Assembly (NCBI GenBank): GCA_964016885.1 | Contig: OZ024741.1 | Location: 148,738,001 to 148,802,000 of the forward strand | Direction of reading: 5' to 3' | DNA length: 64,000 nucleotides | DNA from: Eledone cirrhosa | Lineage: Eukaryota | Shown: piece by piece, positions 9,535 through 64,000 of the stretch | Position numbering within the stretch: position 1 is the first letter of the stretch | Layout of the letters: each line of letters starts with the position of its first letter | The notes under the pieces: model-generated | Told to the model about the DNA's origin: nothing | Seen by the model: the letters and a program-made list of their open reading frames with translations, nothing else | Databases searched by the model: none | Program-made: the position numbers and the translations under genes

Positions 9535-9567
<33 letters not shown>

Positions 9568-15800: not shown

Positions 15801-16754
15801 ACTTATTACAATTATCTTACTAGAAATATGATATTTGTAGATCTACATCCTCTCTTAAACTCAAACTATATTATCTAAATTAACCCTATCTTGAACACTG
15901 AATTTTTGTTCCCCATGAGCATTGGGAGACAAAAGACCTCCATTTTGCCTGCTTGCAAGTCTTGCCACTGTTTGCTCTGAGGCCAGATATCTGCTCATCG
16001 TTTCTGTAGCAGTTTTGATTAATGGAGGTAAAGTTGCTTGCCTTGTGCACCATCTTTTCCTCCTTCTCAACATAAATCAAAAACTAACCAAGCATTTCAA
16101 AATGAAAGGGACTGTGGATAGGGATCCATTTTAGGTCATGTCAGTTGGAACCAGCTGCACCTGTGACTCAAGTCATTTTACTTTATTTTCAAAGGAACAC
16201 AAGATAATGTTCTGTCCAGTTTTGAAATAATGCTTCTTAAAATCCTGAACTCTGAACTAACTTTGCTACATTTCTGCCATCAGTTTGAGGCCTCTTTCCA
16301 GTACAATTCTTTTGCTTTGTAGAGCAGTTGACATTTAATTTCTGCCATAAGGCTATCACCTTCCTGCATTACCTGATCAACTGATAAACTACCATATATT
16401 AGCAACTTTATCCAGATATACTTTCAGAATTTTTGGTTATTCCTAATCAACCTGAAACTGCCATAGTTCTACACTAGAAATCTGTTTAACCTTCCATAAT
16501 AATTTTATGTAAGAACCTGTAAGTGATGTTCCAAATTTAATAATGAGAAAGTTAATTTAAACACCTCAAAATTTTTGTATTTTCAAAATCATTCGGAAAA
16601 TATGATAAGGAAGCTAACCTCAATAGTTGACACTTTTGGTTGCCTTTCTAAACTGATTTTTGCTATTGGCTTATTTTACTCTTAATAGTTTCTTTAAAAA
16701 CCAATAATATTGAAGAATAACAAACTGAGTTGTATTTTTTCTCTTCATCTTCAG

Positions 16755-16839
16755 ATGTTCTCACCACCAGTTACTGGTCAAGGAATAAAAAATGGAACCA
16801 CAAATATGGACTCAATGTATTCTGGAGGATATAAAGCAG
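16755..16839 (+). CDS. TCF4: E-protein coding exon A (MFSPPVTGQGIKNGTTNMDSMYSGGYKA+1)
   Basis: ttttctcttcatcttcag|ATGTTC acceptor; GCAG|gtaatt donor; 85 nt, phase 0 to 1; MFSPPV begins the exon after AD1 (DKELSDLLDFSA) in TCF4/TCF12. Confidence 0.92.
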
Positions 16840-39083: not shown

Positions 39084-40634
39084 GTAAGTTTGCAATGCTC
39101 AATATTTAAAAACTTATTACCAATGTGTATTTTTCACTGTTTCAGTACTCTATATAATATTTTTCTATTCATAGCCTTTAGTATTTACATTACTCTATAT
39201 ATACTATTGTATTTTTGTGGTAAAGGCTTTATCTTAAATAATTACCTCTCATAATATCGAATCTGAGATTTTGATGTTATTTATTTTAAGAACAATACCT
39301 TAACATCAGTATGAGTGGCCAGTAACAGCCGGTTTGAACAGAAAGAGGTTAGAGAATTCTGGCCAGATATGGCCGGTTTATGCTAAAGAGTTAACACTTT
39401 AAAACCTAATCCTTTTCCCCTACCATGTGCATGCTTCCCAACCTTGGTTATCCACTGCACAAAAATCACTGAAAAGAATATTTGTTAATTAAACTTGATA
39501 AAAATCACAGCAATGTCTTACTAAAGATCTCGGTTTAAATCAATGGTTGATTTATGCACAGTGGTATAAAGAACTAATAAACTGAAGTGTATGGTAGAAT
39601 GGAATACTGGGTTGGCGAGATATAGTCAAATATTGTTGGGACCAGAATGCTGGGCTTGCAGGCTCAGAGTAATAAACATTATCTTCTGAAATATTCTCTC
39701 TGTAATTTTCAGGATTTAAAATCTTCTTTTTAAGGGATTTCATTTAAGAAAGAATTTGATTCAAATGGTGTCATGAAAAATAACAAGTGTCTGAAAGATG
39801 CAATGTAAAATGTAAAAGAAAAAAAATATTCCAGTAAAAAATATTTTGTTGAAAGATGTGAGAAAAGTGGTGGAATTTGGTATGGTAGTCTTCGTTTCAA
39901 CAGAATAGATTATGGTTTAGTAATTCTTCATCATCAACTCCCCCACTACCATCATCAACTCCATCACCACCCACCATCATTTTTACATCTGCTTTTTCCA
40001 TGCTGACAAGGGTTGGGGTGAAATTTTCCAGGAAGATTTTCTACAGATGGATACCCCTTCTAATTCCAACCCACATTATTTTAAGTATGGTATATACTAC
40101 TAATGTTCATTGAACCTACAAGATGTATTGTTTATGGAGGACATAAACAATCGTCACCGCTGACATTATGACATTTGCAGCAACTGGCACACAAATACTC
40201 ATATACCGATATATACATATATAAATATATATACAACAGGTTCATTAGTTTCTGTTTACCTACTTTCTTGGCCCAGAAAAACACTTGTCCAAGATGCTAC
40301 ATGGTTACAAAGTAAACTTTCTAATTACACAGCTATTTTTCTTTTTACTCCAATCTTCGGTTAACTATCAGAATGTGAAGGTGTGTGGCTGAGTGTTTAA
40401 GATGTTGGATTCATTATCATAAGGTTGAGGATACAATTCCTGGCTCGGGTGGTGTATTGTCTTCTTGGACAAGATGTTTCATTTTATGTTGCTTTTAATG
40501 ATAGCAAAAATATATTTCTATTGTTTTAAAATCCCTCCATTTCCATAGAGGTACCTTATCTGTGAGTTACAGCAAATATAATTTGTTCATATTTCCTGAA
40601 CGTATCTTGTTGCAATTTATTAAATCTGATGAAT

Positions 40635-41290
40635 TGTCTCTAAGATTGTCAAGAGGGCCGAGGGTGTCTTAGCATCACTCAGCAAGACCTTTGTCAGCCG
40701 CTCTCCAGATATCTATTTAAGGCTGTATACAGCTATGGTGCGACCACACTTAGAATTTGCATCACCAGTCTGGAACCCCTATCTTGCTCAGGACATTGAC
40801 CGCCTGGAAACTGTTCAGAGACGTGCAACCAAGCGAATACCCTCCATCAGGCATCTACCATACTCTGAGCGCCTTGCTTCCCTGGGCATGGATTCATTGA
40901 AGCTCCGACGCCTGGCAACTGACTTGGTAAACACCCACAAAATTGTTAACCATGTTGCCAACAACAACCCTGAGTACCTTTTCGATTTCCATGTGTCTAA
41001 CACACGTGGACATGCCCACAAAGTAAGAAAACAGCACAGTTCCCATGACTTTAGGAAACATTTTTTCACGCTCATAGTTGCTGAAGCATGGAACAAACTA
41101 CCTGCATCAGTTGTTAGCTGTCGAGACACTGCATCCTTTAAGGCCTCCATGCTTCCCGAGATCCGCCAACAGAACAGCTAACACATACACACATGTACTT
41201 CCCTGACATTTGTGTATTATTCTATGTACTATATTGACGAGTTGTAGTGCACCTGAGCACTTTACACAATAATTTCATTATTATTATTAT
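40635..41290 (+). mobile_element. 5'-truncated CR1-clade LINE 3' end
   Basis: ORF 40735..41181 nearly identical to the C-terminus of 58081..59373; ends AATTTC(ATT)n. Confidence 0.92.
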
Positions 41291-41939
41291 AATTTGATGG
41301 TTCAGTAGTTCCAAAACCAAACTTGATTCTTATTAAACAGAAACTATTCAGCCCAATAAAGCAACATTAGAAAATATTTTTCTTGGAATTTCTTGATAAC
41401 AGTAAAAGTTTTGCATTGAAGGTTGATTCTTTGATTTAAAATAATTTGGAGGAGTTCAATTACCTCTTTCATTATCATATTTCCAATAAAAGACACTGTC
41501 TATAATTTTCAAATAATTTTGAAAATAATCTCTTTATTATGCTGATAAACATAACATAACATAACATAATTATTCTTAATTAAAATTATGATTGAAGGTG
41601 TCTAGATAAAAATATACATTTCAAAATATGTATCATAGAAACAGGGGTTGGCCTCAGGTGCTTTGGTATCGAAATGGTCAATATTTTTAGACATATTTAT
41701 ACATTAAAGACTTGTTGGTATTTTATAGACTGAAAATGTTGAATAATTAAATAGCTTTTGTGTATTATATTGCAGTCGTTGATGCTAATTTCTGCATTGA
41801 TATTCACAGTTGTTTTCATTATTCCACATGCAATGTATTCTTGCATAGGTGTCCTACTATGCTTTTCTTACTTTTATATATATGAGGACCAAAAACGTGA
41901 GGTGTTCAGGATTGCTAGACAATGTGTTGCAAGTTAAAG

Positions 41940-43880
41940 GTAGTATAATAAGTAAGGCAGCTGGGCCTTCGGAGATAGTTGGAATGGTGGGACATACTAT
42001 GGTCACTCGTATAGTTAACCAAGTAATACAGAATGGAGTCTTACAAAAGACTGGTGTAGCAGCATCATCATTAACTGCTACAAGGGTAAAGGGGATGCTC
42101 TAGATAGGGGAAACTATAGAGGCATTAAGTTAGTTGACCAGGTCATGAAGGTCACAGAAAGAGTTATAGCACAACTAATCAGAGAGCGAATTGATCTAGA
42201 TGAAATGCAGTTTGGGTTTGTGTCGGGTAAAAGTACCACAGGCGCTCTTTTCCTTGTACGACAACTACAGGAGAAGTACCTAGCTAAAAGTAAACCCCTC
42301 TACTTAGCTTTTGTAGACCTGGAGAAAGCCTTTGACAGAGTCCCCCGTTCCATTATCTGGTGGGCTCTGAGAAAACTAGGTGTAGATGAATGGCTTGTGA
42401 GAGCTATACAAGCTATGTATAAAGAAACAGTCAGAAAGGTTAGAATTAACAATGAATATTGAAGAATTTAGCGTAAAAGTTGGTGTTTATCAAGGTTCTG
42501 TCCTTAGCCCCCTCCTATTTATGATTGCCCTTCAGGCTATAACAGAGGAGTTCAAGACCGGCTGCCCATGGGAACTTCTATACGCAGATGATCTAACTCT
42601 CATAGCTGACTCTATTGCTGAACTAGAGAAGAAATTCCAAACATGGAAGCATGGCCTAGAATCAAAAGGCCTTAAAGATTTAGTTTGTAGAAAGGAAAAT
42701 AGGGCACAGGTGCCCTTAGGGAAATGGCCATGCTCAGTGTGTAGGAAAGGAGTAGGCAAAAATTCCATTTTATGTCCCAAATGCAAACTATGGGTACATA
42801 GAAGATGTAGTGGGATCACAGGTAAGCTATCTAAGAACGTAAACTTTATATGTGGCTGATGCTCAGGTGCAATAAGTAGCAAGTGCCCACAGGATACTAG
42901 CTTCTTCTATTGCCCAGATGGTTCTATAGAAATAGTGGACATTTTCCGTTACCTGGGTGACGGAATCAGCAGTAGTGGTGGGTGTTCTGAAAGTACAGTA
43001 GCCAGAGTCAGAACGGGATGGAAAAAGTTCAGAGAGCTTATATCGCTGTTGGCCACAAAAGGTTTCTCTCTAAAATTGAAAGGCAGATTGTATGATGGCT
43101 GTATACAAACAGCAATGTTACACGGCAGTGAGACATAGGCATTGCGTGCTGAGGACCTACGCAGACTGGAAAGGAACGAAGCATGCATGCTCCATTGGAT
43201 GTGTAATAGTAATATACGTGAACGGCAAAGCATAAATGAACTAAGTGAGAAATTAGGAATAAGAGGGATCAGATGCTGTTTACTTGAGAGAAGACTACGT
43301 TGGTATGGCCACGTGATGCGCATGAAAGACGACAACTGTATAAAAAAGTGCAGGGCGATCAAAATTGATGGTAGTTACGGAGTAGGTTAGACCCAGAAAA
43401 ACCTGGGGCGATCTGATAAATTCCGACCTTACACACTTCTCTAAGACAATGTCACTGGACCGAGATCTTTGGCGCTACACAGTATTACAGAAAACCCGCC
43501 TTGCCTATGTACAAAGCGAAACCTACAGTCAGTAGGCACCCCAATCCACTACCCCTACCCTATCCTCCCACACCCACCAACACCACCTTCTCTCTGTAAA
43601 GTTGGTACCACAACATCCAGTCCAAATAAATGAGATCGAGATTGTGTAGATGTCACGACAAAAAAAACACACAGTCCACGCTGTAATGTGGCCGTGTAGG
43701 TAACATGGTAAGAAGTTCCCAGTTCCACACTGTAAATGTGGTTGGTGTTAGGAAGGGCATCCAGCCGTAGAAAACCTGCCAGATAGTCCTATATGAGCGA
43801 GACACGGTCACCCGACCAACCTTGCCTTAAGTGGGGCAACTCCCATCTAACCCATGCTAGCGTGGAAGATGGATGTTAAA
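41940..43880 (+). mobile_element. 5'-truncated RTE-clade LINE (RT, Cys-rich insert, 3' UTR, (GAT)n tail), inactivated
   Basis: ORFs 42145..42462 (FVDLEKAFDRV), 42452..42859 (QGSVLSP, YADD, CxxC...CxxC...HxxC), 43142..43390 (RRLRWYGHV). Confidence 0.92.
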
Positions 43881-45682
43881 CGAAGATGATGATGATGATT
43901 ATCACTGATATATATTTACTACATTCACTGTGGAAAGTGGTTCTTATGAAGGGTGTCTAGCTGTAGAAACTATACTAAAAAGAATGTAAATGTATTGAGA
44001 GTGAAACATGATCTCCCAACCCATATGGGAGGAAAGCAGATCTGATTAAATACTGATTTGGTCTTTAATGACCCATTCAACTCATGCTAGTATGAAAAAG
44101 TAGGCGTAAAATGATGTAGATTCAATAGTAAACCATTGTGGTGTTGGAGATAACAAACTTAATCCATAACTAAAACACATTAGCTGCTGTAATGTTTATA
44201 TCAAACACATCATTTGTTTTCATCTAGCTTGCAGGTTAGCAATCTTTTGCCCTTTGGCACTCTGAAATATTTTAATTAATCTACAATTGGATTAGAATAA
44301 AAGCTACAACTTATGACCCAGGCATTGAAGAAATCTCATTTTCTAAGCCAAAAATCGCAAATAAGAAAAAAGTTAGCTAAATTCATATTTTCTTGTATGT
44401 ATTTTTCTTTCTGAGAGTTTTGAGTATTTTTTAAAAGCTAAAAATGGCTCTTCAGATTGAAAAGGTACCTGTAATCTAGCCTGACATTAATATCTCCTGC
44501 ATCTTTCATAATCTCACCATGGACCCTAATGGGGCATAGCCTAGTGGTTAGTGTTAGGCTTACAATCATAAGGTTATGGGCTTTATTTCTAAATTGGGTG
44601 GCTGTTGTGTTCTTCAGCAAGATATTTCATTTCACATCGCTTTTCATGATTGGACTAAGGGCCCTATCATAAGATACCTGAGAAACCTCCAATGAGATGC
44701 AGCACTTACTAAGCTTTAAATTAGTTTGATTTTTTTTTCATTCTCATAACATTGTTGGTGATTAATTTTGATCTTTGAAAAAGTACAAATAATTATTTGG
44801 TCTCCTTTTCCAGTTGTATAGAAAACAGATACAAAGTAAATTTTAACTTTGTCTTTAAATCTGTTGATACAAAACAACCCAAAATTGCCCTAATTCTCTA
44901 CAATGACAAATCTCTTATTTACAGTATTTATATTTAAATTAAATATAATGTTATAGAAGAATATTTTTATTAAGCTATGAACTAAACATCAGTTTATTAA
45001 TACGGTTAGTTATTTTACTAAATTCCTTCAAATTGTTGATTATTTACAAAATAAATTGAAAAACATAGGCAGTGTATTTCATTAGAAATATGAAAATGAA
45101 AGGGTTAAGTTGCTGGCTTTGTGGTAGCCCATGCATAATAGATTGGCTGCTTCAAGAACAGGTACTTTTTGGCAGTTGTCTGTTAATTCTTTAGTTTAGC
45201 TGTCAAGCCTCTATTTCCCGGTTTGTTCACTTTATAGAAAGATATATAAATACATGCAACCTGTTTATGTCATTAAAATCGTAAAGTTTTAATTAAATCA
45301 AGTTTACTATTTTTTTAAAATAATCTGTTTTTCATTTTAAACACATTGAGAATTTGCTAATCTTGATGTATTTTTATGTAAACTAATTACCTTATGAGGT
45401 GGATGAAGTGGTAGTTCTATATAAAAAAAAACATATGTGATAAAGGGAGGCAGAAAGCATGTTTTGTTCAACATTAACAGCTGTGACTTTTATGAATGAA
45501 TATTAGGTTTATTTTTTTATATATACACATGACTCTGTTTAAAAAATTTGCTTCACAACTAGGTCGTTTTCAGTATAGTCCTACTGCGTTGCACGTTGGC
45601 AACTGCCTTTTACTATAGTCTTGCCTTGACCCATGCTCTGTGTAGATAGAAACTGTGCAGAAACCTGTCATATATATATATA

Positions 45683-46101
45683 TCATATTTGACAGCTTAT
45701 AAGACACTTTGTTTTCCAAAAAATATCCAGAAAATCACCCTGCATTTTATAAGGTCAAGGGTCAGTTTGGATTACTGTCTAGTGGAGTTCTGGTGCTGCA
45801 GTGGCCCTTAAATTAAACTTGAAACATCTCTGTGATCCCTTCTACACCAACAATGGCAACTCTTTTCTAAAAAAAGCTACAATTTTAATAAATTTTATGA
45901 TGAATAAAATTAATTGATTTTCACTCTCTTTTGTTTTAAAAATGTACGAACATATTACAACTAGAATTACAGTGTAGAATAATAATTAAAAAATATGATG
46001 TACAAACTTTATACTATTCACCTGACATTCGCAGTTTAAACCCATTTTTTTTTAATGCCTGCCCAAATTGAGGTGCGTCTTATAGGCCGTCAAATACAGT
46101 A
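45683..46101. mobile_element. Tc2/pogo-like MITE
   Basis: Inverted ends TATTTGACAGCTTATAAGACAC and GTGCGTCTTATAGGCCGTCAAATACAGTA. Confidence 0.65.
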
Positions 46102-46534
46102 TGTGTGTAGAGATATTTATCTTGCATTCGAAACGGTTTCAGGCAATCTAGAACATTATAATGGTCTGCCAAAGTTAACTGAAATTATAACTCAGCAAAG
46201 ATTGCAATTGGCAGATCACTATGGATCATCCTAAAGAAATAACTGCAAATCTAGTGCTATGGCAGCAAACACATGGGCAGATTAGCCACAGGAGACAAAA
46301 CACTAACTATATTAACATACTTCAAAAGGACACATGATTGAAAACCGTATCGGAAATATGAACAATAATGTTGGAACGAGACATCTACCACAATTATGTT
46401 TCCCTGGTATGATTGGAGAATCTGTGTAACTTGTGAGTGTCCATGTTTCACATCCATATAAAACAAGATAATTTCAACCATTGCTAAACACTCTGGTTTT
46501 AATTAAACCCCACCCATATGTATATATAATTATC

Positions 46535-47200
46535 ATCATTTTATGTTTGGTTTTTCTCGCTACTATTGGTTGGCCGGATCATTTCTACAGCCTCCCTCCA
46601 CTCATAACGTTTCTTTATCATCTCTGAGATCAGCTTTAACAATCTCTGCTCAGGTGTTTCTTGGCCTTCTGCTGTAGCTTCCTTCCACTGGCACTTCACA
46701 CAGTGTTCATCATCCATGCACATTAGATGTCTAGAGCAGCACAGTTTTCTCTCTTACACACTAAATTTAATTTTTCTTATACTCAGCTTTTCTCTCTGTT
46801 GATCCATGCCCCATTGCACATTCAATTGAACATTTCTCTCTAGCCTCCATACTCTATACATTTACTGCCCATGTCTCACTATCATGCAGCATCGCTTGTA
46901 GAGACATCCCTTTGTTGTTAACAGGGGTAGTAGGTTCCTAAATTTTTTCTAGCCTGTTTATATTTTAGTTACTATGTTTTTAGGGCAACCCCTTCCACTG
47001 CTAATTAAATCACCAAAGTAACAGAATCTATCAATTACTTCTGATACCTTCCTAGGATTGGAAATTGTATATTTCACTGCTTCTCTTACTATCCATTATT
47101 TCTGTCCATCTTTTTTGTTAACTTGTGTACTATCCCAGTACACTTCTTGTGCATACCTTACATTGTGTATGAGTTCCTACCTACTCCTTTTCTACAAAGT
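46535..47200 (-). mobile_element. Old RTE-clade LINE 3' fragment
   Basis: Reverse-complement homology to 42730-43400 and 47410-48140. Confidence 0.7.
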
Positions 47201-47409
47201 TCTGTTTCTATAACAGTTTTACACACCTTTGTGATGGAAATATTCACTGAATAAATTCATACATTCAGTGAAATTCTGAATATAACCTTATTTTATTAGT
47301 GTTCCATTTATATATATAATATTTATTATTTATTCATGTAATAGTCCTCCACCCCCATTAAATGTATGATCCTAGTTTGTTTGTTTGTTTTTTATTAAAT
47401 TTGTATCTA

Positions 47410-48140
47410 ATTGTAAACCTTGTAGAAATGGAGTAGGCATAAACTCCATACAATGTACACAATATACTTGGGTACACAAGAGATGTAGTGGGATAACGGG
47501 TAGACTACCAGGAAGGCAAGACTTAGTATGTAAAAAATGCACAGTGGTAATTGAGGAGAAGAGTGTCAGTAATATAAACCTTTTCCAATCACGTGAAGGA
47601 TCTATAGAAGTGGTTGATAGCATCTGCTATCTAGGTAACTTAATTAGCAGTAAAGGAAGGTGCTTTGAGAGCATAATAGATAGAATAAGGATAGGATGAA
47701 AGAAGTTTAGAGAGCTACTCCCACTGTTGACAACAAAAGGACGACTGTATGGCACTTGTGTGTGAAGTGCATGCGATACTGCATGGTAGTGAAACATGGT
47801 CTGTGACTACAGAGGACATGTAGGCTGAAGAGAAATGAAGCAACTATGCTTCGTTGGAAGTGTAATGTAAATGTGGGAGAAAGGCAGAGCTTGGATAAAC
47901 TGAGGGTAAAAGTGGGTTTAAGAGGAATTCGAAGTGGTGTGCATGAGAGATTGCGTTGGTATGGACATTTGATGCATATGATGGATGAGGATCGCTGTGT
48001 GAAGGAGCGGAAGGAAGCCGCAGTAGAGGTAGACCAAGAAAGACTTGGGCAGAGGAGATGACAAAGGGACGCGGCATGTGGAGAGATGCTGTGCTGAAAA
48101 GGACCCATCCAACCTATACAAGCATGGAAAATCAATGATG
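47410..48140 (+). mobile_element. Old RTE-clade LINE 3' fragment
   Basis: GVGINSIQCTQ..WVHKRCSGI and RLRWYGHL peptides; CATGGAAAA...GATG tail. Confidence 0.8.
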
Positions 48141-49124
48141 CTGTTAATTATTAAGCTTGAAAGTATGTTTTAATAAGCATGTGTTTATTATCACTCATAT
48201 AAACTTAGCTGGCATAAATAAATGTTGTTTGTGGTGTGTGTGTGTGTTTGTGTTGGGCCCACAATAGTAATATCATTGGTTTGAATACTAGGCCAAACAG
48301 CGTGTTTTCTTGGGCAAGACTTCATTTCAAGTTGCTCCAGTCCACTTGAACTAAAAATCAACCCAGTATCAGTAGCTAGTGATTAACTCTGTGATGGACT
48401 GGTGCTCAGTTGAAGATGGAATTTTGTACTTCAAATCACTTAACACTATTGAGACAAGATAGGCTCTAGCCTGAAGGACATATAACTGTAATTTATGGAC
48501 AGTAACTCTACTATCATAATTTTAATAAAACAAATTGTTTTAGAGCCTATTTTCGGAAACACTGCATTATTGGAAGTATATTGTTGATCATTTATAGTGA
48601 AGTTAATCCAATTTTGGTTCTATATATGTTTTTTCGTTTTTATTTCCTGAATACACTTGGTTTTGTAAATAATTTTTGTAACTTCATTTCTATCTATTCT
48701 ATCAAGTTCTTAAGTATAATTTTCTAATCATAAATTCCATATCATCAATACCTATGCACACACACTAAATGTATGTATGGGCCTATAACACCTGATCTAG
48801 TCATAGGATGCCTTCATAGCTGGCATATTATAGAGGAAGGCCCAACTCCAGAGTGATTTGAACTCAGCTGGAGCAATATCACAAGGCAGTCTATTTGACA
48901 TTTTAACTACTCTGTCAATTCGCTACCTTAATATGTGTGTGTGTTAAATATATATCATTTAGCATGTGTTCCCCCTTTCCCATTTGTTTGTACATTTCTA
49001 CATGTTAGTCCCTATCCATTGTTCTCATGCGTGTGCCAGTTAATAAAACTTGTAGCTTCACTTCACTATAAGACACAATATATTTTCGAGGCCATAAGGC
49101 TGTGTGTTTTTATCTGCTCACTCA

Positions 49125-49210
49125 AGTTGAGCCAATGAAGCCAGTCTCAGCTGTGCCATTCCCATTTATTGCTCTTTATAAAATTTCACAAAATGCAACA
49201 GCTGGCAACA
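49125..49210 (+). promoter_or_regulatory. Candidate internal Pol II promoter (CCAAT, TATA, two E-boxes)
   Basis: CCAAT 49132-49136, CAGCTG 49148-49153, TATAAAA 49177-49183, CAGCTG 49199-49204; motif evidence only. Confidence 0.3.
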
Positions 49211-49918
49211 ATTTTATTGAACATTATTTTTCCAACTGATAAAAGAATAAATAATATTTTTTTCCATGTGTGTATGTATGCTGTTATTATTTCAATTAGA
49301 TATTTTCTAATTCATAATGAAATAGTATATTTTAAAAAATAGGTGACTTGCATTTGCTTACTTTTGTTTTCTTTTTCTTTTGTGTTTATAAATATATCTA
49401 AATGTATTTTCTTGCTGTCCCAGGCTTTAGCAGTTTCAAGTAGTCTTTATAATTGTGTCATGAGCTTACTGGAAGTAGAGGTTGCTTGCTGACTTATTAG
49501 AAATAGTTCAATCAATAGTTAAACTGACCTTTACGTTATATTGTTATAATGGTTAGTCTTAAAGACTTCCTGGCTTCAGAAATACCATGTTTGTTGATAG
49601 AGAACAACACATCATTTCAATTGGGAGTGATTGGAGGAAGTTTTGAAGTGTTTGCAATAATTAGCTGATTTTAGTTTTTTGGGGGTTTTTTTGCACTATA
49701 TTTACTTTCTATTGGAGATCAACTGTAGGAATATGAAAGTGTTTCATTCTTTGTAATATATTTTTTTGTTTTGCTCACATTAAGATTGAACTTGGAATAT
49801 GGATAAAAAGTAACCGTATATATATTTTTGAGTTGCAATGCTGTCAGGTTTATATTTTCTCTAAAATAAGTTTAAACTTATGTTTTATTGTTAGTTTTTT
49901 TGCAAACAATTATTTTAA

Positions 49919-49960
49919 ATGGATTACATTGAGTTAAAGCCATTACAATTTTACCATGAG
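49919..49960 (+). CDS. Candidate alternative first coding exon (MDYIELKPLQFYHE) of the E-protein gene
   Basis: ATG directly after an in-frame TAA, 14 open codons, then consensus phase-0 donor GAG|GTAAGT, in apparently non-repetitive sequence; no transcript evidence. Confidence 0.45.
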
Positions 49961-50452
49961 GTAAGTAAGTTCATTTCTAACTTTGCCCCATATGTAAAGT
50001 AATGTGAAATAGTATTGTTGTTCAAAGTATATCTTAATAGTGAAGACACGTGGTCTATTGGTTAGGGTGTCGTATCATGATTGTAAGTAAATTCATGTGT
50101 TTAATTCCTGTACGCGGCAACGTATTGTGTTCTTGAACAAGATATTTCATTTTATGTTACTTTTCGTGATAGGTTTTTGACCTCCTCTCATTAAAAACTT
50201 GAGAAGTTTCCTTTGAAGTGTAATCTTATAGGAGACAACTAAATCTACATCGGTGTGAGCTGTAAATCCCTTTTAGGGATTTAGTAAAATACATTACTTT
50301 TAGTTAGTGTTTGGAGCATAACTTTATAAAAGTTTTTTTTAATGCAATTATGGTTTTAATTTAAATACAAACATTTTGAAATAGATAGTTTTGTGTCATA
50401 AAATAAGGGTGTTCTCAGTTGGCCTGTTAAATTTTATTTTTTCATAATTTAA

Positions 50453-50617
50453 CCCTTTAGCATTTGCATTACTCTATATTTACTATTATATTTTTGTAGT
50501 AAAGGCTAATATTGAATCTATGAGATTTTGATATTATGAGTGGCCAGTTATGGCCGGTTTGAACAGAAAGAGGTGAGAGAATTCTGGCTGGATACAGCCA
50601 GTTTAAATGCTAAAGGG
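50453..50617. mobile_element. Short piggyBac-type MITE
   Basis: TTAA|CCCTTTAGCATTT ... AAATGCTAAAGGG|TTAA perfect TIRs; second copy at ~39172-39394. Confidence 0.85.
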
Positions 50618-50924
50618 TTAAACTCCTTTTTTGTATAATTTAGTTCAGTACATGAGGTATATTTCCTTATTAATAAATTGTTGGTTATATTTCAGTCATG
50701 TTTAAGTTACCTTACTAGTTTTATGCAATCTTTGCTTTCCTGTTTCCCAAATTAATTCTTATTGTTTTTGTATTATTAAAGTTTAGATTATCTGAAATAT
50801 AATAATAACTGTATATATAATTTTATGCTGTACACCATATTTCTATTGTAAGAGGCATCTGAAAGTATTGTAGCTAAAAGGGGCATCTAATTGTAAAAGA
50901 TTACCTATGAAGTTTTTCTTTATT

Positions 50925-51142
50925 GTTGAGACACTGCATCCTTTAAAAGATCCATGCTTCCTGAGATTCGCCAACACTACACCTAATATACCCCCTCCAT
51001 ACACACACACACATGTATATCATGACTCATACACTATTCACTTCCCTGACATTTGTATATTATTCTATGTACTATACATGCACCTTTGACGAGTTGTAGT
51101 GCATCTGAGCACTGTACACAATAATTTCATTATCATTATCAT
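50925..51142 (+). mobile_element. CR1 LINE 3' UTR fragment
   Basis: Matches the reverse complement of ~30582-30795 (long-UTR variant). Confidence 0.8.
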
Positions 51143-52723
51143 TTTATGCTATGTTATAATCATTATTGCTGTTCATACTTGAATGGCATATTTCTAATGA
51201 AATCCACTGCCTTTCTGAAAATAATCAAGCATTTGGAAATGTTTAGTAATATTACAATCTTGTTATTACAAAGCTGGTGTTTGGGACATTACTTAACAAA
51301 GGTCCTTACATAAAGTTATGATGGGAAGTTTTGATTTAAATATGAATGCTTTGAAACAAACATTTTTGTCTTATAGAATAAGAAATGGTCTCAGGTGGGG
51401 TGGTATTGTATTGAAGGATTAAATGTCTGCTGAATGGCCTCCTTTCCAGTCTTTAACTGAAAATATTTTTTTTTTTACTCCATCTTGCTTTAGCTTTAAT
51501 TAGTGATACATTTATTAAGTCTTCATCTACAATTAACAACCCTCACATTTTTTCAGCAGGTGATATTTCATGTTTGGAAATCTCTGACAGAAATTTATTT
51601 TTAATAAACTTTCCCTCCACAATCTATGTTAAGGATTCTTTTGTTATTATTGTTATAAAGCACAAGGATAGCTGTATGGTTATGAACTTTGCATTGCAAC
51701 TATATATGGTTTTGTGTTCGGTGTCACTGCATGGCACCTTGGTTGACCAATGACTCGTGAATATAATTGGTTGATAGAAACTGTGTATATGTATGTGTCC
51801 CCAGTAACTTACTGGTTCAACAGAGATCAATAAAATAAATACCAACTATACCCCTTTTCCTAATAAAGTGTGGATTTGTGCACAAACACATACATACACA
51901 ACATAAACATTTCTTTCTCATTTGCAACACCACATTCACCTCTATGTAGCTCTAGTGTAGCAGTATTGATGATGATGATGATGTTGTTTTTTTGTGTGTG
52001 TGTGAAAATCTGTTCTGCTTCTGTGTGTATGTATTATGTATGTTTGTGTATACTATATGTAAGATGTGTATGTGTATGTGCGTATACACTGAGGTGTTTG
52101 GAAATTTATGCTACTTATGTATGTGTGTGTACACTATATATATAGAGAATCTGAAGGCCTCTTACTTATGTATATGTGTATTTACACTATATGTAGGATG
52201 TGGAAATGTGTACTGTTAAGTGCGCTACATCTATATGTATGTTTTGTGTGTGTGCCTTCAATTCTGTTGTGGCAGCTTTAAATAGTTGGATTAAAATTAA
52301 CACACTTAGAATTGGGCATATTATCACTTATTCACTACACAATACCAGAACACTTGTTAAAGACTCTCTTTTACTTCACTGAAGCAAACTATATTAAGTA
52401 AACTCTACTGGTAATATTCCCTTGCCCTGTAAAATTACAATAATTTATTAAAATTCATGTTTGGTTAATAGACTAATGACAGGGAATTCACATTCAGAAA
52501 CTCTTTAATTATTTTTATTCTGGTTTCAGTCATCAGCATGCTGTTTTAAAAGGATTGAGTTAAATCTTATTGACCTCAGTGGTTATAAATCTGTTTACTA
52601 TTTTGTCATTGTATTACTTTAGTGATTTCAGATCAACTCTGTTGATTAAGTTGCTAATATATTGGACAAAGACATGGACAAACAGGACATACACTCACAT
52701 TCTTCATTATTTTCATAATTATT

Positions 52724-52908
52724 GGGCGGTGAATTGGCAGTATCCGTAGAGAGTCGGACGCCATGCTTTCTAGCATAGTTACGTCCCTTTGCGGTCTGAG
52801 TTCAAATCCCGTCTAGATTAACTTTGCCTTACATCCTTACGGGGTCGATAAAATAAAGTACCAGTAATGCACTAGGTATTTGCTGGCCATGTGCCAAAAG
52901 TAGAAACA
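52724..52908 (+). mobile_element. SINE family B with 18-bp target-site duplication
   Basis: Same body as 18089; ATTATTTTCATAATTATT at 52706-52723 and 52909-52926. Other copies at ~8969-9188, 14474-14650, 27343-27560, 33478-33665, 53890-54050. Confidence 0.9.
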
Positions 52909-55370
52909 ATTATTTTCATAATTATTTGAAAACTATCTACAGCACTTTCATTAGAAGATTGGTAAGAAAAGGTTTAGTTACAGTTGTAGTGAAAATTTCC
53001 TCACAAAATTCTATTCTATTAATTAACATTATATAATGATCATGATGAGGATGGTGATGATGAATCCAGTTTATACTGTCATCTATTTCATCTCCCTGTT
53101 ATCTGACTATATTGTATATTGTATTACAAGATTATTTTTTTAAGATCCATTAAATCCTTTTAAATATGAAAAGGCGAGTTAGAGCATTCTATTAAAAATT
53201 TGGTTTTCCTTGTGAACATGTGTTTCTAGCAAGTTTTGCAACATGGTATTACTTCAACGGTTCCATTTTTTAACTAGGTTTGTTAGATTGGTAAATCTCT
53301 CCAAATTCTTGATTATTTTCAAAATTGAATGAAAGTTACATGCAGTGTCTTTCATTAGAAGTCTGGTAACTGAAGTAGTGGATTACAGTCCTTGATAATA
53401 GTACTAGGTATGGTTCTCACTCACACAATTATAAACTAGCAATAGTGTTAACACAGTGTAATTCGGAATAAAGACATATATAGAGCCATATATAATATGT
53501 TTAGAGGTCTCTTTATTCTGAATAACATTGTTAGTGCTTTCCTAGACAAGCTTGAACTATATATAAACTTTCAACAAAAATACAGAATATTTAGCTTTTC
53601 ATCTCTCAGTATCTCAGAGTTGGTAAATATCTGCTAATGGTGGATAATAAATCTGAAATACATGTGTACAGTACTCTCACACTAATACTGTGGTAGCTGT
53701 GGTATGAACACAGTTTAAAATACAGTGAGACTATGTGTATGTTTACTACACATAAACATATTGTAAAATCCATACACACTTTTATGAACCATTATTTTTT
53801 CTCTATTTCCAAATATATTGATAGAAACGTGTTATGTAAAATAAACCATCTTACTTTTATTTTGAAGAAAAAGTCTTTTTAAAAGAATTTGGGGAATTGG
53901 CAGAGTATCACAGCGTTATATTAAATGCCTCTGTATTTATCCCCTTTTTCCACACTGAGTTCAAATTTCATCGAGGTCAACGTTGCTTTTCATCCTTTCG
54001 GAGTCGGTGAAGTATCTATCAAGTACTGGGATCGATATAATCGATTCTTTCCTCTCTTCACATCATCATCATATTTTACGACTAAAGTGTGTCGTATACA
54101 CAGAAAAACACAGTAGTAGTTTTCAAGAAAAGATAATCTATGCTTACTTAGAACTAGTTGTCTCCCTTGTATTACATTATTACTAAATATTTAAACTAAC
54201 TTGGATTAACTTTTTACGTGGATTATATTTATTTTATTGCTAGTTTATATTTATTTTTTATTCCACTCTCACTATCATGAGGGATGGTATTGATTTTACT
54301 ACTAATAAAAAATAAATGGAATAATAATTTAGACAGTGTCTCTTATGGTAACAAAAGGTTTAGTTGTAGCAAAGTGGGAGTGAACATCATCTCACAAAAT
54401 CTTATTCAATTAATTAACATTACATATGATCATGATGAGGATGGTGATGGTGAATCCAGTTTATACTGATATGTATTTCATCTCCCTGTTATTTGACTAT
54501 ATTGTATCTTTCATTAGAAATATAGTTGTGAACGGATACTTATAAACCTAAGTGTTTAGATTTATTTAAAAACCTATCATAATTTTATGTAACAACCTTT
54601 GTTAAGTTATGTTTCAAGCTCTAGATAAATAATGAGAAAGTTATATTACTTTTGAATGTTGATTATTTAAAAAAAATTATTTGAAAATCCTAGACAATGT
54701 CTCTTATTATTAGAAATATGGTAATAAAGGGTTTAGACATAATTGTTGCAAAGAGGGGGTGAAGAGCTATAGTGAACGTTTTCTTACAAAATCTTCCTTT
54801 ATTAATTAATGTTACCTAATGATCATGATGAGGATGGTGATGATGAATCCAATTTCTACTGACATATATTTCATCTCCCTGTTATCTGACTATATTGTAT
54901 ATTACAACATTAATGGTGTCTTTCATTAGAAATATGGTTGTGAAAGGGTTACAATAACATATCACTTTACAAAGAAACACCACTGTTTAGTTAAATGTAA
55001 GGTTGCTATTGAAAGTGTTTAAATTTATCTAAACAGCTACCACCATGATTTTATATAAGAAACTTTGTTACATTATATTACAAACACCAGAAATAATGAA
55101 AAAGTTATATTACTTAATCAATCCAAAATCTTGATTATTTAAAAAATTATTAGGGAATCATAGGTAGTATCATCCATAAGGAATATGGTAATAAAAGGGT
55201 TGTATTCTAAACACCAGCTTAATGAAAAAGCTAATTCCTTACAAGTTCCCTCTAAAATTTTGATTATCTTCACAATTATTTGAAAATTATTGACAGTGCC
55301 TTTCATTAGAAATTTAATAACAAAAGCATAAGTTATGTTGTAAGCATTAGCTTAATAGCGAAAAAGTTAT
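52900..55370. repeat. Diverged, irregular precursor copies of the tandem unit
   Basis: Marker CATGATGAGGATGGTGAT...CTCCCTGTTAT at 53041, 54431 and 54824, among piggyBac-MITE fragments. Confidence 0.8.
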
Positions 55371-55825
55371 AGTACTAAATCCTCTCTACATCTTGATTAT
55401 TTTCAAAAATTATTTGAAAATCCTAGCCAGTGTCTCTTATTAGAAATATGGTAACAAAAGGTTTAGTCACAATTGAAACAAAGAGGTAGTGAACAGTTGT
55501 AGTAAACATTTTCTCACAAAATCTTACACTATTAATTAACATTACATAATGATCATGATGAGGATGGTGATGATGAATCCAGTTTCAACTGACATGTATT
55601 TCATCTCCCTGTTATCTGACTATATTGTATTACAACATTAATAGTGTCTTTCATTAGAAATACGGTTGTGAAAGGGTTTAAATAAAAAATAAATGTCATT
55701 TTACTAAGAAACCTAAAAACATTGCTGTTGCTTTCCATTGACTGCTGTGCAGTCTTGCTTGTTTGGAACTATACATATATACACGCACGCACATACATAC
55801 ATACATACATACATACATACATACA

Positions 55826-56726
55826 TGGTGGCTGCCAACTCGTTTTCGAGTACGGCCACTACTTTATATCCATGTAGGAGAACTCCTACCGATGCCCTGA
55901 ACAAGTGTGACTTTTTAGTCCAGCCAGCGACTTGAAAACTCTGGTACAAACACTACACTTGTGACAATTATATATATATATACATACATACATACATATG
56001 CACATATATATACATACACACATACATACATACATACATAAACATGCATATACATACACATATACATACATACATACATAGACACACACATACATATGCA
56101 TACATATATATACATACATGGTGGCTGCCAACTCGTTTTCGAGTACGGCCACTACTTTATATCCATGTAGGAGAACCCCTACCGAACCGCTGAACGAGTG
56201 TGACTTTTTAGTCCAGCCAGCGACTTGAAAACTCTGGTACAAACACTACACTTGTGACAATTATTGACACATAGTGCTGGGCCCATGATACCATTTGACG
56301 ACAAGTGCAGAGAGATCTCCAGATATAAAGCAATGCCTGTGCCGTGAAGGTTTTATAGTGAGCAAAGGCACTGCACAAAGCCAGTCCCACTCTCTTAACC
56401 AAGATGATATTTACCAAAAAGAAGAACAAGTCAACATCATTGGATACCATCAGGGTTGCAGGTGTTATATCAGAGTTTTCCTTCTCCTAGAATTCTGCCT
56501 TGGCAAAGGCTAAGGGGTCATCTCTCCTGGTGATTTTGGATGGCCATTGACTCTAAAGAGCTCCTTTGCCCTTTGACAGGTTTTGTTTTTAGCCCTGCAG
56601 GATGTCCAAAGTCACCCTCCTCACCAAGAAACCTTGGTGGGGTTGCCAGTTTAGTCGCCAACGACCCGGCCATGAGACGGGTTGTACTGGGATACATGTT
56701 ACCAGTAGCACCAACTGGTGACCTGA
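55826..56726 (-). mobile_element. Two tandem insertions of a non-autonomous LINE derivative (~145-bp 3' stub at 55826-55968; ~600-bp copy at 56119-56726) in a (CATA)n tract
   Basis: Duplicated 3' end encoding HKCSVCTRVFKSLAGLKSH (C2H2-like), (ATGT)n tail; GC-rich 5' part with CTAGGAGAAGGAAAACTCTG, a motif I associate with RTE-type 5' UTRs. Confidence 0.6.
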
Positions 56727-56758
56727 CATACATACATACATACATACATATATGTACA

Positions 56759-57081
56759 TAGTGGAACCTCGGTTCATGAAAGCCTCTCATGGTCAATTTG
56801 GTTCAAGACCAACTCTTCTGAACATAAAAACGGCTTAGTTGATGAACGATGTCTCAAGTAATGAACATAAGCTGGCAACAAGCTGGGAGTACCAGTGGGA
56901 AAGCATCACTTGCTGTGTAGTTAGTTACTATGGTGATATCAATCTGTCTTTCACACAGTCTCTTTCTCATTGTATTTCTCTCTCAACATTTTGTATAGGG
57001 AAAATAGTTTCAGTTTATGAACATTTTGGATTACAAACGGCCTTCGGGAACAAATTAAGTTCATGAACCGAGGTACCGCTG
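56759..57081. mobile_element. Tigger/pogo-like MITE (~325 bp), one per array unit
   Basis: TIRs TAGTGGAACCTCGGTTCATGAA and TTCATGAACCGAGGTACCGCTG, followed by TA. Confidence 0.8.
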
Positions 57082-57977
57082 TATATATATATATATGCTT
57101 GAAGTCACTGGCCAGTACCATCATTTGTTTGTTTTTCCTTTAACCCATTTGATACCAAAGCATCTGAAACCACCTGTTTTACAATACAAGGTTGTTTATA
57201 TTTGAAGGGTTTGGATCATCTAGAAACTTTCAATCATATTTTAATGTAAGAAAAAACCTTTGTTAGTTTATGTTCCAAACATCAGATAAATATTGAAAAA
57301 GTTAGTTATAGTACTGAATCTTCTCTACATCTTGATTATTTTCAAAAATTACTTGAAAATCCTAGACAGTGTCTCTTATTAGAAATATGGTAAGAAAAGG
57401 TTTAGTCATAATTGTAGCAAAGAGAGAGTGAACATTTCCTCGCAAAATCCTACCCTATTAATTAACATTACATAATGATCATGATGAGGATGGTGATGAT
57501 GAATCCAGTTTCTACTGACATGTATTTCATCTCCCTGTTATCTGACTATATTGTATTACATGAATGACGTGTTTCATTAGAAATATGGTTGTGAAAGAGC
57601 TAAAATAAAAAATAAATGTCATTTTACTAAGAAACCCAAAAACATTGCTGTTGCTTTCCATTGACTGCTGTGCAGTCTTGCTTGCTTGGAACTATACATA
57701 TATACACACACGCGCACACATACATACATACACATAGTGGAACCTCTGTTCACGAAACCCTCTCATGGTCAATTTGGTCCATGACCAACTCTTCTGAACA
57801 TAAAAACGGCTCAGTTGATGAACGATGTCTCAAGTAATGAACACACAAGCTGGCAACAAGCCGGGAGTACCAGCGGGAATGCATCACTTGCTGTGTAGTT
57901 AGTAACTATGGTGATATCAATCTGTCTTTCACACACAGTCTCTTTCTCATTGTATTTCTCTCTCAACATTTTGTATA

Positions 57978-60030
57978 ATAATAATGAAATTATTGTGTAA
58001 AGTGCTCAGGTGCACTACAACTCGTCAATATAGTACATAGAATAATACACAAATGCCAGGGAAGTACATGTTTGTATGTGTTAGCTGTAGTGTTGGCGGA
58101 TCTCGGGAAGCATGGAGGCCTTAAAGGATGCAGTGTCTCGACAGCTAACAACTGATGCAGGTAGTTTGTTCCATGCTTCAGCAACTCTGAGCGTGAAAAA
58201 ATGTTTCCGAAAGTCATGGGAACTGTGCTGTTTTCTTACTTTGTGGGCATGTCCACGTGTGTTAGACACATGGAAATCGAAAAGGCACTCAGGGTTGTTG
58301 TTGGCAACATGGTTAACAATTTTGTGGGTGTTTACCAAGTCAGTTGCCAGGCGTCGGAGCTTCAATGAATCCATGCCCAGGGAAGCAAGGCGCTCAGAGT
58401 ATGGTAGATGCCTGATGGAGGGTATTCGCTTGGTTGCACGTCTCTGAACAGTTTCCAGGCGGTCAATGTCCTGAGCAAGATAGGGGTTCCAGACTGGTGA
58501 TGCAAATTCTAAGTGTGGTCGCACCATAGCTGTATACAGCCTTAAATAGATATCTGGAGAGCGGCTGACAAAGGTCTTGCTGAGTGATGCTAAGACACCC
58601 TCGGCCCTCTTGACAATTTTAGAGACGTGCCTCGTCCAACGCAAATCGCTGCTGACCGTAATGCCCAGGTCACGTTCACAGGAAGACTTCTTGATATTAG
58701 TGCTGTGGAGGGAGTATGTGGACGCTGGGTTTTTACTCCCAAAATGCATGGTGGTGCACTTGTCCACAGCTAGCTTGAGTTGCCAGTCTGAGATCCACTG
58801 TTGCATTGTGTCCAGGTCAGACTGCAAACAAGATCTATAGTGTTCAGGATCTGTCCTTTTTATCTCAAGGTACAGCTTGATGTCGTCTGCGTACTTTAGT
58901 ACCGTGGCATTCCTTAAGTTGGCATCTATGTCATTAATATATGCCACAAACAAAAGGGGGCCAAGAACAGATCCCTGAGGTACACCAGATGACATCTCAT
59001 ATGGTGAGGAATGCTGTCCCAGAACCGTGACTACCTCTCTTCGACTGAGAATGAAGGACTTCAACCAGTTAAAAAGATCATCCTTCACACCCATTGCAGA
59101 GAGTTTTGCCATAAGCCTTTTGTGCGGCACAGAATTGAAGGCCTTCGCAAAGTCAAGGTAAACAACATCCACCCATGAGCCGCCATCAGTGATCCGGGTG
59201 ATGTCCTCAAGAAACTCTATAAGTTGATCACAGCAGCTGGAGTTGGGGATAAATCCAAATTGCGAGGGCCGGATAAGACTGTGAGAGCTCCAGAAGTTCC
59301 AAAGTGTTTCTCTGACACAGGATTCCATCAGTTTGGCGATGCAACTAGTAAGACTGACTGGACGATAGTTCACAGGTGATGTGCGGTCACCCTTTTTGAA
59401 CAGAGGAATTACACTGGCAGTTTTCCACTGTTCTGGAGTAGCACACTGTTGTTCAGACAGAATTGGAAGAAGCGTGATAACTGGTGTAGAAGGAAGTACC
59501 CACCACGTTTAAGAAGCAGGTACGTAACACCATCAAGACCAGGAGAGGCATGGTTGCGTTTATTTTTTAGGTGACGTCGCAGCATTGCAGGTGTAAATTC
59601 CATGGTTGTAATAGAGTCCGGTGTCATAGGTGGTGGAGATGGTACACTCTGGTCTTCAATGGTGAAAATGCCTGCATAGCATTCAGCAATGAGCTCTGCG
59701 CATTCCTTGGGGTCGTCAGTAACCTGGCTTGTGTGGGGATTGCGAAGAGGACCAACTGGAGAGTGAGGCCTCTGCTTTGAGTGAACATACTTCCAGAACA
59801 CCTTACTGTCAGGGCTGGTTGCTATGCGCTGCTCAAATTGAAGCACTGCCTTTTTTGTCACCTGTTTGAGGTGGTTGGACGATCTATTTCGCCTCTTCCT
59901 ATTAATGTCTGATTTGTGAAGTTTGTACTCACGTTCAGCATTGCGCCGTTCTTTTCTGGCAAGACGGACTGCTGCAGTCTCCTAAATTGCGCTTTTAGGA
60001 TGTTTTTTCCGCTTACGTGGCACCGATGCT
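57978..60030 (-). mobile_element. Young 5'-truncated CR1-clade LINE (2053 bp) inserted in one array unit
   Basis: Unit sequence TTGTATA|GGGAAAATAG is split exactly; RT ORF 58081..59373 (NYRPVSLTS, YLDFAKAF, GVPQGSVLGP, YADD) is intact; upstream ORF 59409..59861 joins by one frameshift near 59445. Confidence 0.95.
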
Positions 60031-63000: not shown

Positions 63001-64000
63001 ATAGTTTCAGTTTATGAACATTTTGGATTACAAACGGCCTTCGGGAACAAATTAAGTTCATGAACCGAGGTACCGCTGTATATATATATATATATATATG
63101 CTTGAAGTCACTGGCCAGTACCATCATTTGTTTGTTTTTCCTTTAACCCATTTGATACCAAAGCATCTGAAACCACCTGTTTTACAATACAAGGTTGTTT
63201 ATATTTGAAGGGTTTGGATCATCTAGAAACTTTCAATCATATTTTAATGTAAGAAAAAACCTTTGTTAGTTTATGTTCCAAACATCAGATAAATATTGAA
63301 AAAGTTAGTTATAGTACTGAATCTTCTCTACATCTTGATTATTTTCAAAAATTACTTGAAAATCCTAGACAGTCTCTCTTATTAGAAATATGGTAAGAAA
63401 AGGTTTAGTCATAATTGTAGCAAAGAGAGAGTGAACATTTCCATGCAAAATCCTACCCTATTAATTAATATTACATAATGATCATGATGAGGATGGTGAT
63501 GATGAATCCAGTTTCTACTGACATGTATTTCATCTCCCTGTTATCTGACTATATTGTATTACATGAATGGCGTGTTTCAATAGAAATATGGTTGTGAAAG
63601 AGCTAAAATAAAAAATAAATGTCATTTTACTAAGAAACCTAAAAACATTGCTGTTGCTTTCCATTGACTGCTGTGCAGTCTTGCTTGCTTGGAACTATAC
63701 ATATATACACACACGCGCACACATACATACATACATACACATAGTGGAACCTCTGTTCACGAAACCCTCTCATGGTCAATTTGGTCCATGACCAACTCTT
63801 CTGAACATAAAAACGGCTCAGTTGATGAACGATGTCTCAAGTAATGAACACACAAGCTGGCAACAAGCCGGGAGTACCAGCGGGAATGCATCACTTGCTG
63901 TGTAGTTAGTTACTATGGTGATATCAATCTGTCTTTCACACACAGTCTCTTTCTCATTGTATTTCTCTCTCAACATTTTGTATAGGGAAAATAGTTTCAG

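What the first reader, a model, noticed from the sequence alone, without database searches (positions are those of the whole stretch)
49125..49966. Candidate internal promoter and alternative first exon in the intron where vertebrate HEBAlt/TCF4-A begin
Seen: in an apparently repeat-free block of the intron after the NLS exon lie CCAAT, TATAAAA and two CAGCTG E-boxes. About 700 nt later come TAA-ATG, 14 codons (MDYIELKPLQFYHE) and a consensus GAG|GTAAGT donor in phase 0, the phase the next common exon needs. Known: TCF12 (HEBAlt) and TCF4 (isoform A) start at an internal exon in this same intron and splice in phase 0 to the VYAPS exon, dropping AD1 and the NLS. Inference: this invertebrate E-protein may have an ancestral or convergent short isoform, possibly autoregulated via E-boxes. 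The peptide does not resemble the vertebrate ALT domain.
Basis: partly seen in the sequence, partly recalled or inferred. Interest (0 to 1): 0.75.

Follow-up and report, generated by a model that had tools for sequence, protein, structure and literature searches.

The report
Conserved alternative start of octopus E-protein
A tiny 14-codon exon hidden in a 70-kb intron of the octopus TCF4/TCF12-type gene matches the protein start of short forms in a ribbon worm and other invertebrates, and likely begins a shortened transcription factor with its own tag, different from the known vertebrate 'Alt' tag.

Summary
The exon is supported by conservation; the promoter is unproven. All motifs are where stated. 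The gene is an octopus E-protein (97% to O. bimaculoides over one exon). ATG 49919-49960 ends in the best-scoring donor of 3,921 GTs in the 70-kb intron, in the phase the shared VYSPS exon needs. The peptide is conserved: a ribbon-worm RefSeq isoform starts MDYAELKPLQ|VYSPSP (9/10 identical), an unnamed lophotrochozoan protein has MEYTELQPLQQ|VYSPSP, and contig L053 carries the same codons plus a phase-0 GTAAGT. So it is old, not octopus-specific. It is not detectably homologous to vertebrate Alt. Two further conserved tyrosine-rich candidate first exons lie downstream of the window (71846, 81489) and look more like Alt, though not significantly. Predicted product: about 612 aa, without AD1 and the NLS-like exon. 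The CCAAT/TATA/E-box cluster is uncommon (about 1% per kb, post hoc) but sits 712 nt and 12 ATGs upstream; autoregulation is untested. Splicing in octopus is not shown, and none of 14 annotated octopus isoforms is short. A sea-urchin Alt form is published, and this scan noted three such exons in another octopus genome. New variant of a known kind.

The parts
49919..49960 (+). Coding part of the conserved alternative first exon (exon A), MDYIELKPLQFYHE, preceded by an in-frame TAA (49916-49918)
   Evidence: homologous starts in P0368, P0178 and L053
49961..49966 (+). Phase-0 splice donor GTAAGT (GAG|GTAAGT); its predicted acceptor, the VYSPSP exon, lies outside the window at window-relative 109112-109199 (L037:5112-5199)
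   Evidence: Rank 1 of 3,921 GT sites in the intron; phase-0 GTAAGT also follows the homologous codons in L053; acceptor exon
49130..49138 (+). CCAAT box with NF-Y-type flanks (consensus recalled); putative
49148..49153 (.). E-box CAGCTG 1; putative
49177..49183 (+). TATAAAA; would place a start near 49207; putative
49199..49204 (.). E-box CAGCTG 2, next to the predicted start; putative
49207..49918 (+). Putative 712-nt leader with 12 upstream ATGs; possible internal donor 49552 and acceptors 49423 and 49894
39019..39083 (+). Upstream common exon with the basic cluster QKRRKS (NLS by position), absent from the short form
36593..36707 (+). Upstream common exon (GLLGNSMPMSP...EEPLR)
6391..28601 (+). 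Five further upstream E-protein exons (about 6391-6426, 16755-16839, 22574-22629, 26961-27040, 28533-28601); the AD1 exon (ELSDLLDFS) lies about 50.6 kb before the window
   Evidence: tblastn with P0124; boundaries partly checked
39084..64000 (+). In-window part of the 70-kb intron. It runs on to window-relative 109111 and there holds two more candidate phase-0 first exons: B, 71846-71875 (L033:7846-7875, MYYYSRPKLQ, weak GTGTGC donor) and C, 81489-81548 (L034:7489-7548, MYCTTYPFYRTLMYLPPKGN, GTAAGT donor)
   Evidence: B: (7/10 to P0289). C: (12/18 to Ridgeia piscesae P0154)

Best explanation
The 14 codons at 49919-49960 are a conserved coding segment with their own ATG and a phase-0 donor, and likely form an alternative first exon that would splice to the shared VYSPS exon 59 kb downstream, giving a predicted short E-protein of about 612 aa. 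Shown: the anatomy, the phase match, and the same peptide directly in front of VYSPSP in other lophotrochozoan records. Inferred: the product lacks AD1 and the NLS-like exon but keeps AD2 and the bHLH domain. Like NLS-less human TCF4-A it would depend on its dimer partner for nuclear entry and act as a weaker, partner-steered activator. A separate internal promoter, one of three in this intron, would switch it on in particular cells (CCAAT/TATA cluster as that promoter: about 0.35). The invariant M-[DE]-Y-x-E-L-[KQ]-P-L-Q tag most likely acts as a tyrosine-phosphorylation or docking switch, by analogy with the YYY motif of HEBAlt (about 0.25). E-box autoregulation: about 0.15.
For: (1) Tubulanus polymorphus RefSeq XP_074661185.1 (isoform X2, P0368) begins MDYAELKPLQ|VYSPSP, 9/10 identical. 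It came in as a cluster member of another protein, not through the peptide. Among 602 intron ATGs with a phase-0 GT it picks 49919 with score 47 against 16 for the next; tblastn E 4.7e-6 in 264 kb. (2) P0178, an intron-free 483-aa protein from an unnamed 4,257-nt contig, has MEYTELQPLQQ|VYSPSP, 7/10 identical; 9 of 20,000 shuffles of the octopus peptide reach that score against any of 34 N-terminal segments. It falls in the lophotrochozoan clade (support 99) beside the annelid Ridgeia (81). (3) A 10-codon degenerate pattern built from octopus and P0178 hit 1 metagenome contig, L053; there the residues equal P0178 at 10/10 and are followed in frame by GTAAGT in phase 0, which was not in the pattern (background 0.2-1.1% of positions). 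The same pattern gave 0 hits in 596 Gb of prokaryote genomes and only this site in the own genome. (4) Flanking non-coding DNA is no more alike than shuffles (56 of 200 reach the score) while the codons are kept, as expected for selection on the peptide. (5) Human TCF4 has three 5' exons (10a-c) before the same exon; isoforms A, H and I lack AD1 and the NLS and localise with their partner (PMC3137626). HEBAlt activity is modulated through YYY in a JAK-dependent way (PMC9385190).
Against: None of 14 of 14 octopus cluster members (three species, 704-810 aa) is a short form, and a search on the shared exons returned 3 clusters from 14 candidates, all long. No named mollusc record seen has this start: Haliotis 15 listed of 49, Patella 11 of 11, Liolophura 11 of 11; nor has Lineus, 9 of 9. 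A transcript from the TATA would carry 12 upstream ATGs, and still 4-11 under three leader-splicing options tried. L053 has no TATAAA or CAGCTG in 1,150 nt upstream. Taken alone, P0178 has shuffle p 0.01 among 34 segments tested. RefSeq XP isoforms are predictions; I did not see their read support. The function of the tag rests on analogy only.
Confidence: 0.82

Rival explanations
1. The exon is real, but its transcript starts elsewhere: nearer the ATG, or at an upstream non-coding exon. The CCAAT/TATA/E-box cluster is then an enhancer or chance. This is compatible with the main reading of the exon.
For: 12 ATGs in the 712-nt leader, but only 2 in the last 100 nt; candidate acceptors at 49423, 49784 and 49894 and a strong donor at 49552. 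No TATAAA or CAGCTG upstream in L053, nor in the 1,000 nt before exon C.
Against: Spacing CCAAT to TATA to a CA 30 nt on is textbook (recalled), and the cluster is the only one of its kind on the + strand of 264 kb.
Confidence: 0.55
2. The exon is an ancestral relic that is still recognisable in octopus but no longer, or hardly, used.
For: Absent from 14 of 14 annotated octopus isoforms and from the other mollusc isoforms listed.
Against: 9/10 identity to a nemertean and an intact best-ranked donor would not survive long without selection, since neighbouring DNA shows no likeness to L053.
Confidence: 0.07
3. The segment is an internal cassette spliced after the NLS exon through the acceptor at 49894; it would bring an in-frame TAA and act as a poison exon, with the ATG used only on re-initiation.
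For: A pyrimidine-rich AG at 49893-49894 lies 24 nt (in frame) before the ATG, with TAA just before the ATG.
Against: Homologues begin the protein with this peptide (P0368) or with a longer Met-started extension (P0178, L053); conserved amino acids after a stop are not expected for a pure poison exon.
Confidence: 0.06
4. Chance ATG, frame and donor in an AT-rich 70-kb intron.
For: About one AG|GTAAGT is expected by composition and about half of GTAAGT sites have an in-frame ATG; one search lists 34 non-repeat ATG-to-donor candidates in the intron, exons A and C included, from 216 good-scoring donors.
Against: Three independent homologues at the same junction or with the same donor phase.
Confidence: 0.03

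Closest known systems
Vertebrate Alt isoforms: HEBAlt (TCF12) and E2-2Alt / TCF4-A (5' exon 10a); also TCF4-H and -I (same intron)
   Same: Same intron (after the NLS exon), own ATG, phase-0 join to the VYAPS/VYSPS exon, loss of AD1 and NLS; several 5' exons in that intron (three in human TCF4; three candidates here).
   Different: The tag is unrelated to the 23-aa Alt domain and to the TCF4-H start; one conserved Tyr in an acidic setting instead of YYY; own transcription start not shown here.
Sea-urchin alternative E-protein form (Schrankel et al. 2016, Dev Biol 416:149, PMID 27265865)
   Same: An invertebrate E-protein gene with a conserved alternative form (title seen in reference lists; one citing passage in PMC6433000).
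   Different: The paper is not held. I recall that it argues for a bilaterian origin; I could not check whether it lists protostome exons or this peptide.
Annotated but, in my searches, undescribed lophotrochozoan short isoforms: Tubulanus polymorphus XP_074661185.1, Ridgeia piscesae KAK2186930.1, Dimorphilus gyrociliatus CAD5125192-5.1
   Same: Tubulanus X2 carries the same tag as this exon; Ridgeia matches exon C; Dimorphilus has two alternative starts on the same shared exon.
   Different: Automatic annotations with no function; the octopus exon has four extra residues (FYHE); the Dimorphilus start matches exon A only weakly (score 18).

Membership tests
Class I bHLH (E-protein) gene, host locus | AD1 LDFS motif, E-protein-type bHLH and collinear exons | tested here: met
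   PF00010 hits 95 kb downstream; O. bimaculoides TCF12 X1 maps exon by exon at 85-100% identity
Vertebrate Alt isoform (HEBAlt / TCF4-A) | First coding exon lies between the NLS exon and the VYAPS-type exon | tested here: met
   39019-39083 < 49919 < 109112; vertebrate junction seen in P0358 against P0356
Vertebrate Alt isoform (HEBAlt / TCF4-A) | Own ATG and phase-0 donor matching the common exon | tested here: met
   (sequence level only)
Vertebrate Alt isoform (HEBAlt / TCF4-A) | Encodes a homologue of the 23-aa Alt domain | tested here: not met
   Rank 301 of 436 scored ATGs, -2.1 bits, against a 7-sequence vertebrate profile; pair scores 9-23
Vertebrate Alt isoform (HEBAlt / TCF4-A) | YYY motif in the tag | tested here: not met
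   Exon A has Tyr3 (conserved) and Tyr12; YYY is in exon B
Vertebrate Alt isoform (HEBAlt / TCF4-A) | Exon B or C (outside the window) is the Alt orthologue | tested here: inconclusive
   B ranks 1 (E 0.44) and C ranks 19 (E 15) of 436; C shares the MYC start and LMY, B shares MYYY, by eye
Vertebrate Alt isoform (HEBAlt / TCF4-A) | Transcribed from its own start site and spliced in this species | not testable with these tools
   Needs octopus RNA reads or cap data
Vertebrate Alt isoform (HEBAlt / TCF4-A) | Restricted expression; partner-dependent localisation; signal-dependent activity | not testable with these tools
   Localisation and signal dependence are reported for the vertebrate forms
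Lophotrochozoan M[DE]YxEL[KQ]PLQ first-exon class (defined here) | Motif directly before the VYSP exon or before a phase-0 donor | tested here: met
   Octopus, P0368, P0178, L053; among the stored proteins P0124-P0372 the motif occurs in 2

The most novel reading that the evidence does not exclude
The lophotrochozoan E-protein gene has kept, since before molluscs, nemerteans and annelids split, a cassette of three separately controlled first exons, each giving the same AD1-less, NLS-less body a different tyrosine tag, combined with two mutually exclusive bHLH exons. One gene would thus supply the signal-gated E-protein diversity that vertebrates spread over three genes, with the DYxEL tag as a phosphotyrosine input that vertebrates lack and E-boxes at its start closing a feedback loop.
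Probability: 0.2. Interest if true: 0.7.

Novelty: new variant of a known kind. Interest (0 to 1): 0.46.

Why it matters
The function and origin of short 'Alt' E-proteins is open, and TCF4/TCF12 isoforms matter in Pitt-Hopkins syndrome and in T-cell development. A second, unrelated N-terminal tag kept almost unchanged between an octopus and a ribbon worm suggests that selection acts on these few residues and not only on the loss of AD1 and the NLS. It also suggests that several first exons in this intron is an old layout. It gives a precise junction and a single tyrosine to test, and it points to isoforms missing from the octopus annotations seen here.

Tried and rejected
RNA: no RNA holder listed for 49100-49970; the three runs are contigs of one sample that cover intron and exon alike and match 48250-50474 without differences, so they say nothing on expression. 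A first homologue search used wrong coordinates (a microsatellite); its 120 rows were left out of all counts. The sigma-70 promoter scan does not apply to an animal gene. The Atlas gave no answer for P0178 and only chordate TCF12 leads under 0.9 for P0368 residues 1-40. Upstream DNA alignments exon A vs L053, exon C vs L053 and A vs C did not exceed shuffles (56, 27, 26 of 200). Scallop, abalone, P0125 and Tubulanus X3 alternative starts found no convincing counterpart. The first tree run and a self-BLAST mask timed out and were redone with FastTree on 37 rows and with 16-mer masking. My candidate list with donor score of 5 or more missed exon B (score 3.4). The Schrankel paper could not be read. 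Look-ups of earlier scan notes near this place and by sequence were empty; one search gave unrelated notes.

Full report
Setting. The window lies in a 3.0-Gb genome. A search with one downstream exon returned Octopus bimaculoides 'transcription factor 12 isoform X1' at 97%, and that protein maps exon by exon over the window and 20 neighbouring stretches, 264 kb in all. The AD1 exon (ELSDLLDFS) lies about 50.6 kb before the window, the basic exon ending QKRRKSGS at 39019-39083, the shared VYSPSP exon at window-relative 109112 in phase 0, and the bHLH about 95 kb past the window.

Observation. Every motif is present at the stated place. The block is single-copy. The donor is the only AG|GTAAGT in the intron and ranks 1 of 3,921 GT sites under a matrix made from 15 of the gene's own donors. 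That alone proves little: about one such site is expected from composition, and 7 of 13 GTAAGT sites have an in-frame ATG.

Conservation decides it. A search of 50%-identity representatives with the long octopus protein (best 150 of 1,139 listed) gave short proteins that start just before the VYS-type exon. P0178 reads ...MEYTELQPLQQ|VYSPSP; 9 of 20,000 shuffles of the octopus peptide reach its score against any of 34 unique N-terminal segments drawn from 232 proteins. It is an intron-free 483-aa frame on a 4,257-nt unnamed contig, hence likely a spliced transcript, and it groups with lophotrochozoans. A degenerate pattern for the ten shared codons found one metagenome contig, L053, reading MTAMRYPDQGGMDSMEYTELQPLQYQPSPGPHM and then GTAAGT in phase 0. 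The ten codons match by construction; the donor, the aromatic residue 11 and the 10/10 agreement with P0178 do not. Controls: 0 hits in 596 Gb of prokaryote genomes and 1 hit, this site, in the own genome. Finally a cluster look-up brought in Tubulanus polymorphus XP_074661185.1, which begins MDYAELKPLQ|VYSPSP; it selects 49919 from 602 intron ATGs with score 47 against 16. Upstream DNA is not conserved between octopus and L053.

It is not the vertebrate Alt exon. Human TCF4-A, -H and -I starts (PMC3137626, supplement 1 read) do not resemble it, and a profile of seven vertebrate-type Alt starts ranks it 301 of 436 scored ATGs (166 of 602 were not scored). Two other candidates lie further down the same intron, outside the window. 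Exon C (window-relative 81489-81548, MYCTTYPFYRTLMYLPPKGN|GTAAGT) matches Ridgeia piscesae at 12/18, with 0 of 20,000 shuffles reaching the score. Exon B (71846-71875, MYYYSRPKLQ|GTGTGC) matches the unnamed P0289 at 7/10, score 42 against 16; I looked for it after scan note e1-8798061 spoke of three exons in another octopus genome. C shares the MYC start and LMY with vertebrate Alt and B shares MYYY, but neither is significant against the profile (E 15 and 0.44), so which is the orthologue stays open. Dimorphilus is annotated with two alternative starts on the same shared exon, and P0289 has a long cluster mate with the same junction.

Promoter. The cluster has an extended CCAAT, a TATAAAA 45 nt on, a CA 30 nt after the TATA, and two CAGCTG boxes (the consensus forms are recalled). 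Extended CCAAT plus TATA occurs once on + and 3-6 times on - in 264 kb (the first version had a slicing fault at the sequence ends). This is mild, post hoc support. Against it stand 12 ATGs in the 712 nt before the start codon, 4-11 under three splicing options, and no TATAAA or CAGCTG upstream in L053.

Mechanism. Shown: anatomy, phase and conservation. Inferred: an internal start gives a protein of about 612 aa (14 plus the 598 shared residues of O. bimaculoides X1) without AD1 and the basic exon. Human isoforms of this build lack AD1 and the NLS, activate a reporter less strongly than TCF4-B and move with their partner (PMC3137626: passages, section 5 and supplement 1 read). HEBAlt needs the last third of its tag, and its YYY responds to JAK signalling (PMC9385190, passages). 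All four copies of this tag keep M-[DE]-Y-x-E-L, which resembles phosphotyrosine docking motifs of the YxxL kind (recalled, not tested); I commit to a tyrosine switch as the likeliest role, at about 0.25.

Against. No short form among 14 of 14 octopus cluster members, nor among the mollusc and Lineus isoforms listed; the search on the shared exons gave only three long clusters. No named mollusc other than this genome shows exon A in what I saw.

What is known. HEBAlt starts at a unique exon with its own start site, and E2-2 has the same layout (PMC3346973, passages). A conserved alternative form is published for sea urchin (Schrankel 2016; title only; text not held), and PMC6433000 cites it for the HEB/E2-2-like structure of non-gnathostome loci (passage). 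Nine paper searches (listings seen) turned up no description of this tag or of lophotrochozoan short forms; subscription papers, including the most relevant one, were not searched. PMC6317319 (passages) was used for AD1 and E12/E47; PMC5660111 and PMC6494969 were searched for the citation only. Two unreviewed scan notes from another octopus genome report an Alt-like exon and three first exons, so the scan has seen this layout before.

Verdict. A conserved alternative first coding exon, most likely in use, of a class distinct from vertebrate Alt; the promoter and autoregulation are unproven. New variant of a known kind; interest 0.46.

Noticed in passing
window-relative 158920-159065 and 161580-161725 (L042:4920-5065, 7580-7725): Two tandem 146-nt bHLH exons with the same phases (IRVRDINEGFKELGQMITLH... 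and VRVRDINEAFKELGRMCSLH...), an E12/E47-like mutually exclusive pair. All octopus isoforms listed use the second; abalone, limpet, chiton, bivalve-like and Lineus isoforms listed use the first type.
   Followed up: partly
window-relative 81489-81548 (L034:7489-7548): Candidate first exon C, conserved with Ridgeia piscesae, MYC...LMY like vertebrate Alt.
   Followed up: yes
window-relative 71846-71875 (L033:7846-7875): Candidate first exon B with a YYY motif, no ATG in the 300 nt upstream, and a weak GTGTGC donor.
   Followed up: yes
window 6391-6426: 12-codon cassette exon (LPLSRPGSHISQ), present in some octopus and Argonauta isoforms and absent in others.
   Followed up: no
window about 53000-64000 and on to about 67400: Array of roughly 1-kb near-identical units (recurring NDHDEDGDDESS frame and ATG|GTAAGA every 1 kb), interrupted by a LINE-like insert near 58200-60000.
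   Followed up: no
window 50386-50652: Very high-copy short element (summed contig depth up to about 10^6); a related copy seems to lie near 39170-39390.
   Followed up: no
window 30582-31490, 40633-41178, 42019-43130, 47500-48150: Broken LINE reverse-transcriptase-like fragments in the introns (family by recalled resemblance).
   Followed up: no
proteins P0125, P0132, P0133, P0151: Other mollusc records have short, tyrosine-rich alternative starts in front of earlier exons (MFSPP exon; GIMGG exon), so alternative first exons may also occur in other introns; no counterpart was found in the 264 kb.
   Followed up: partly
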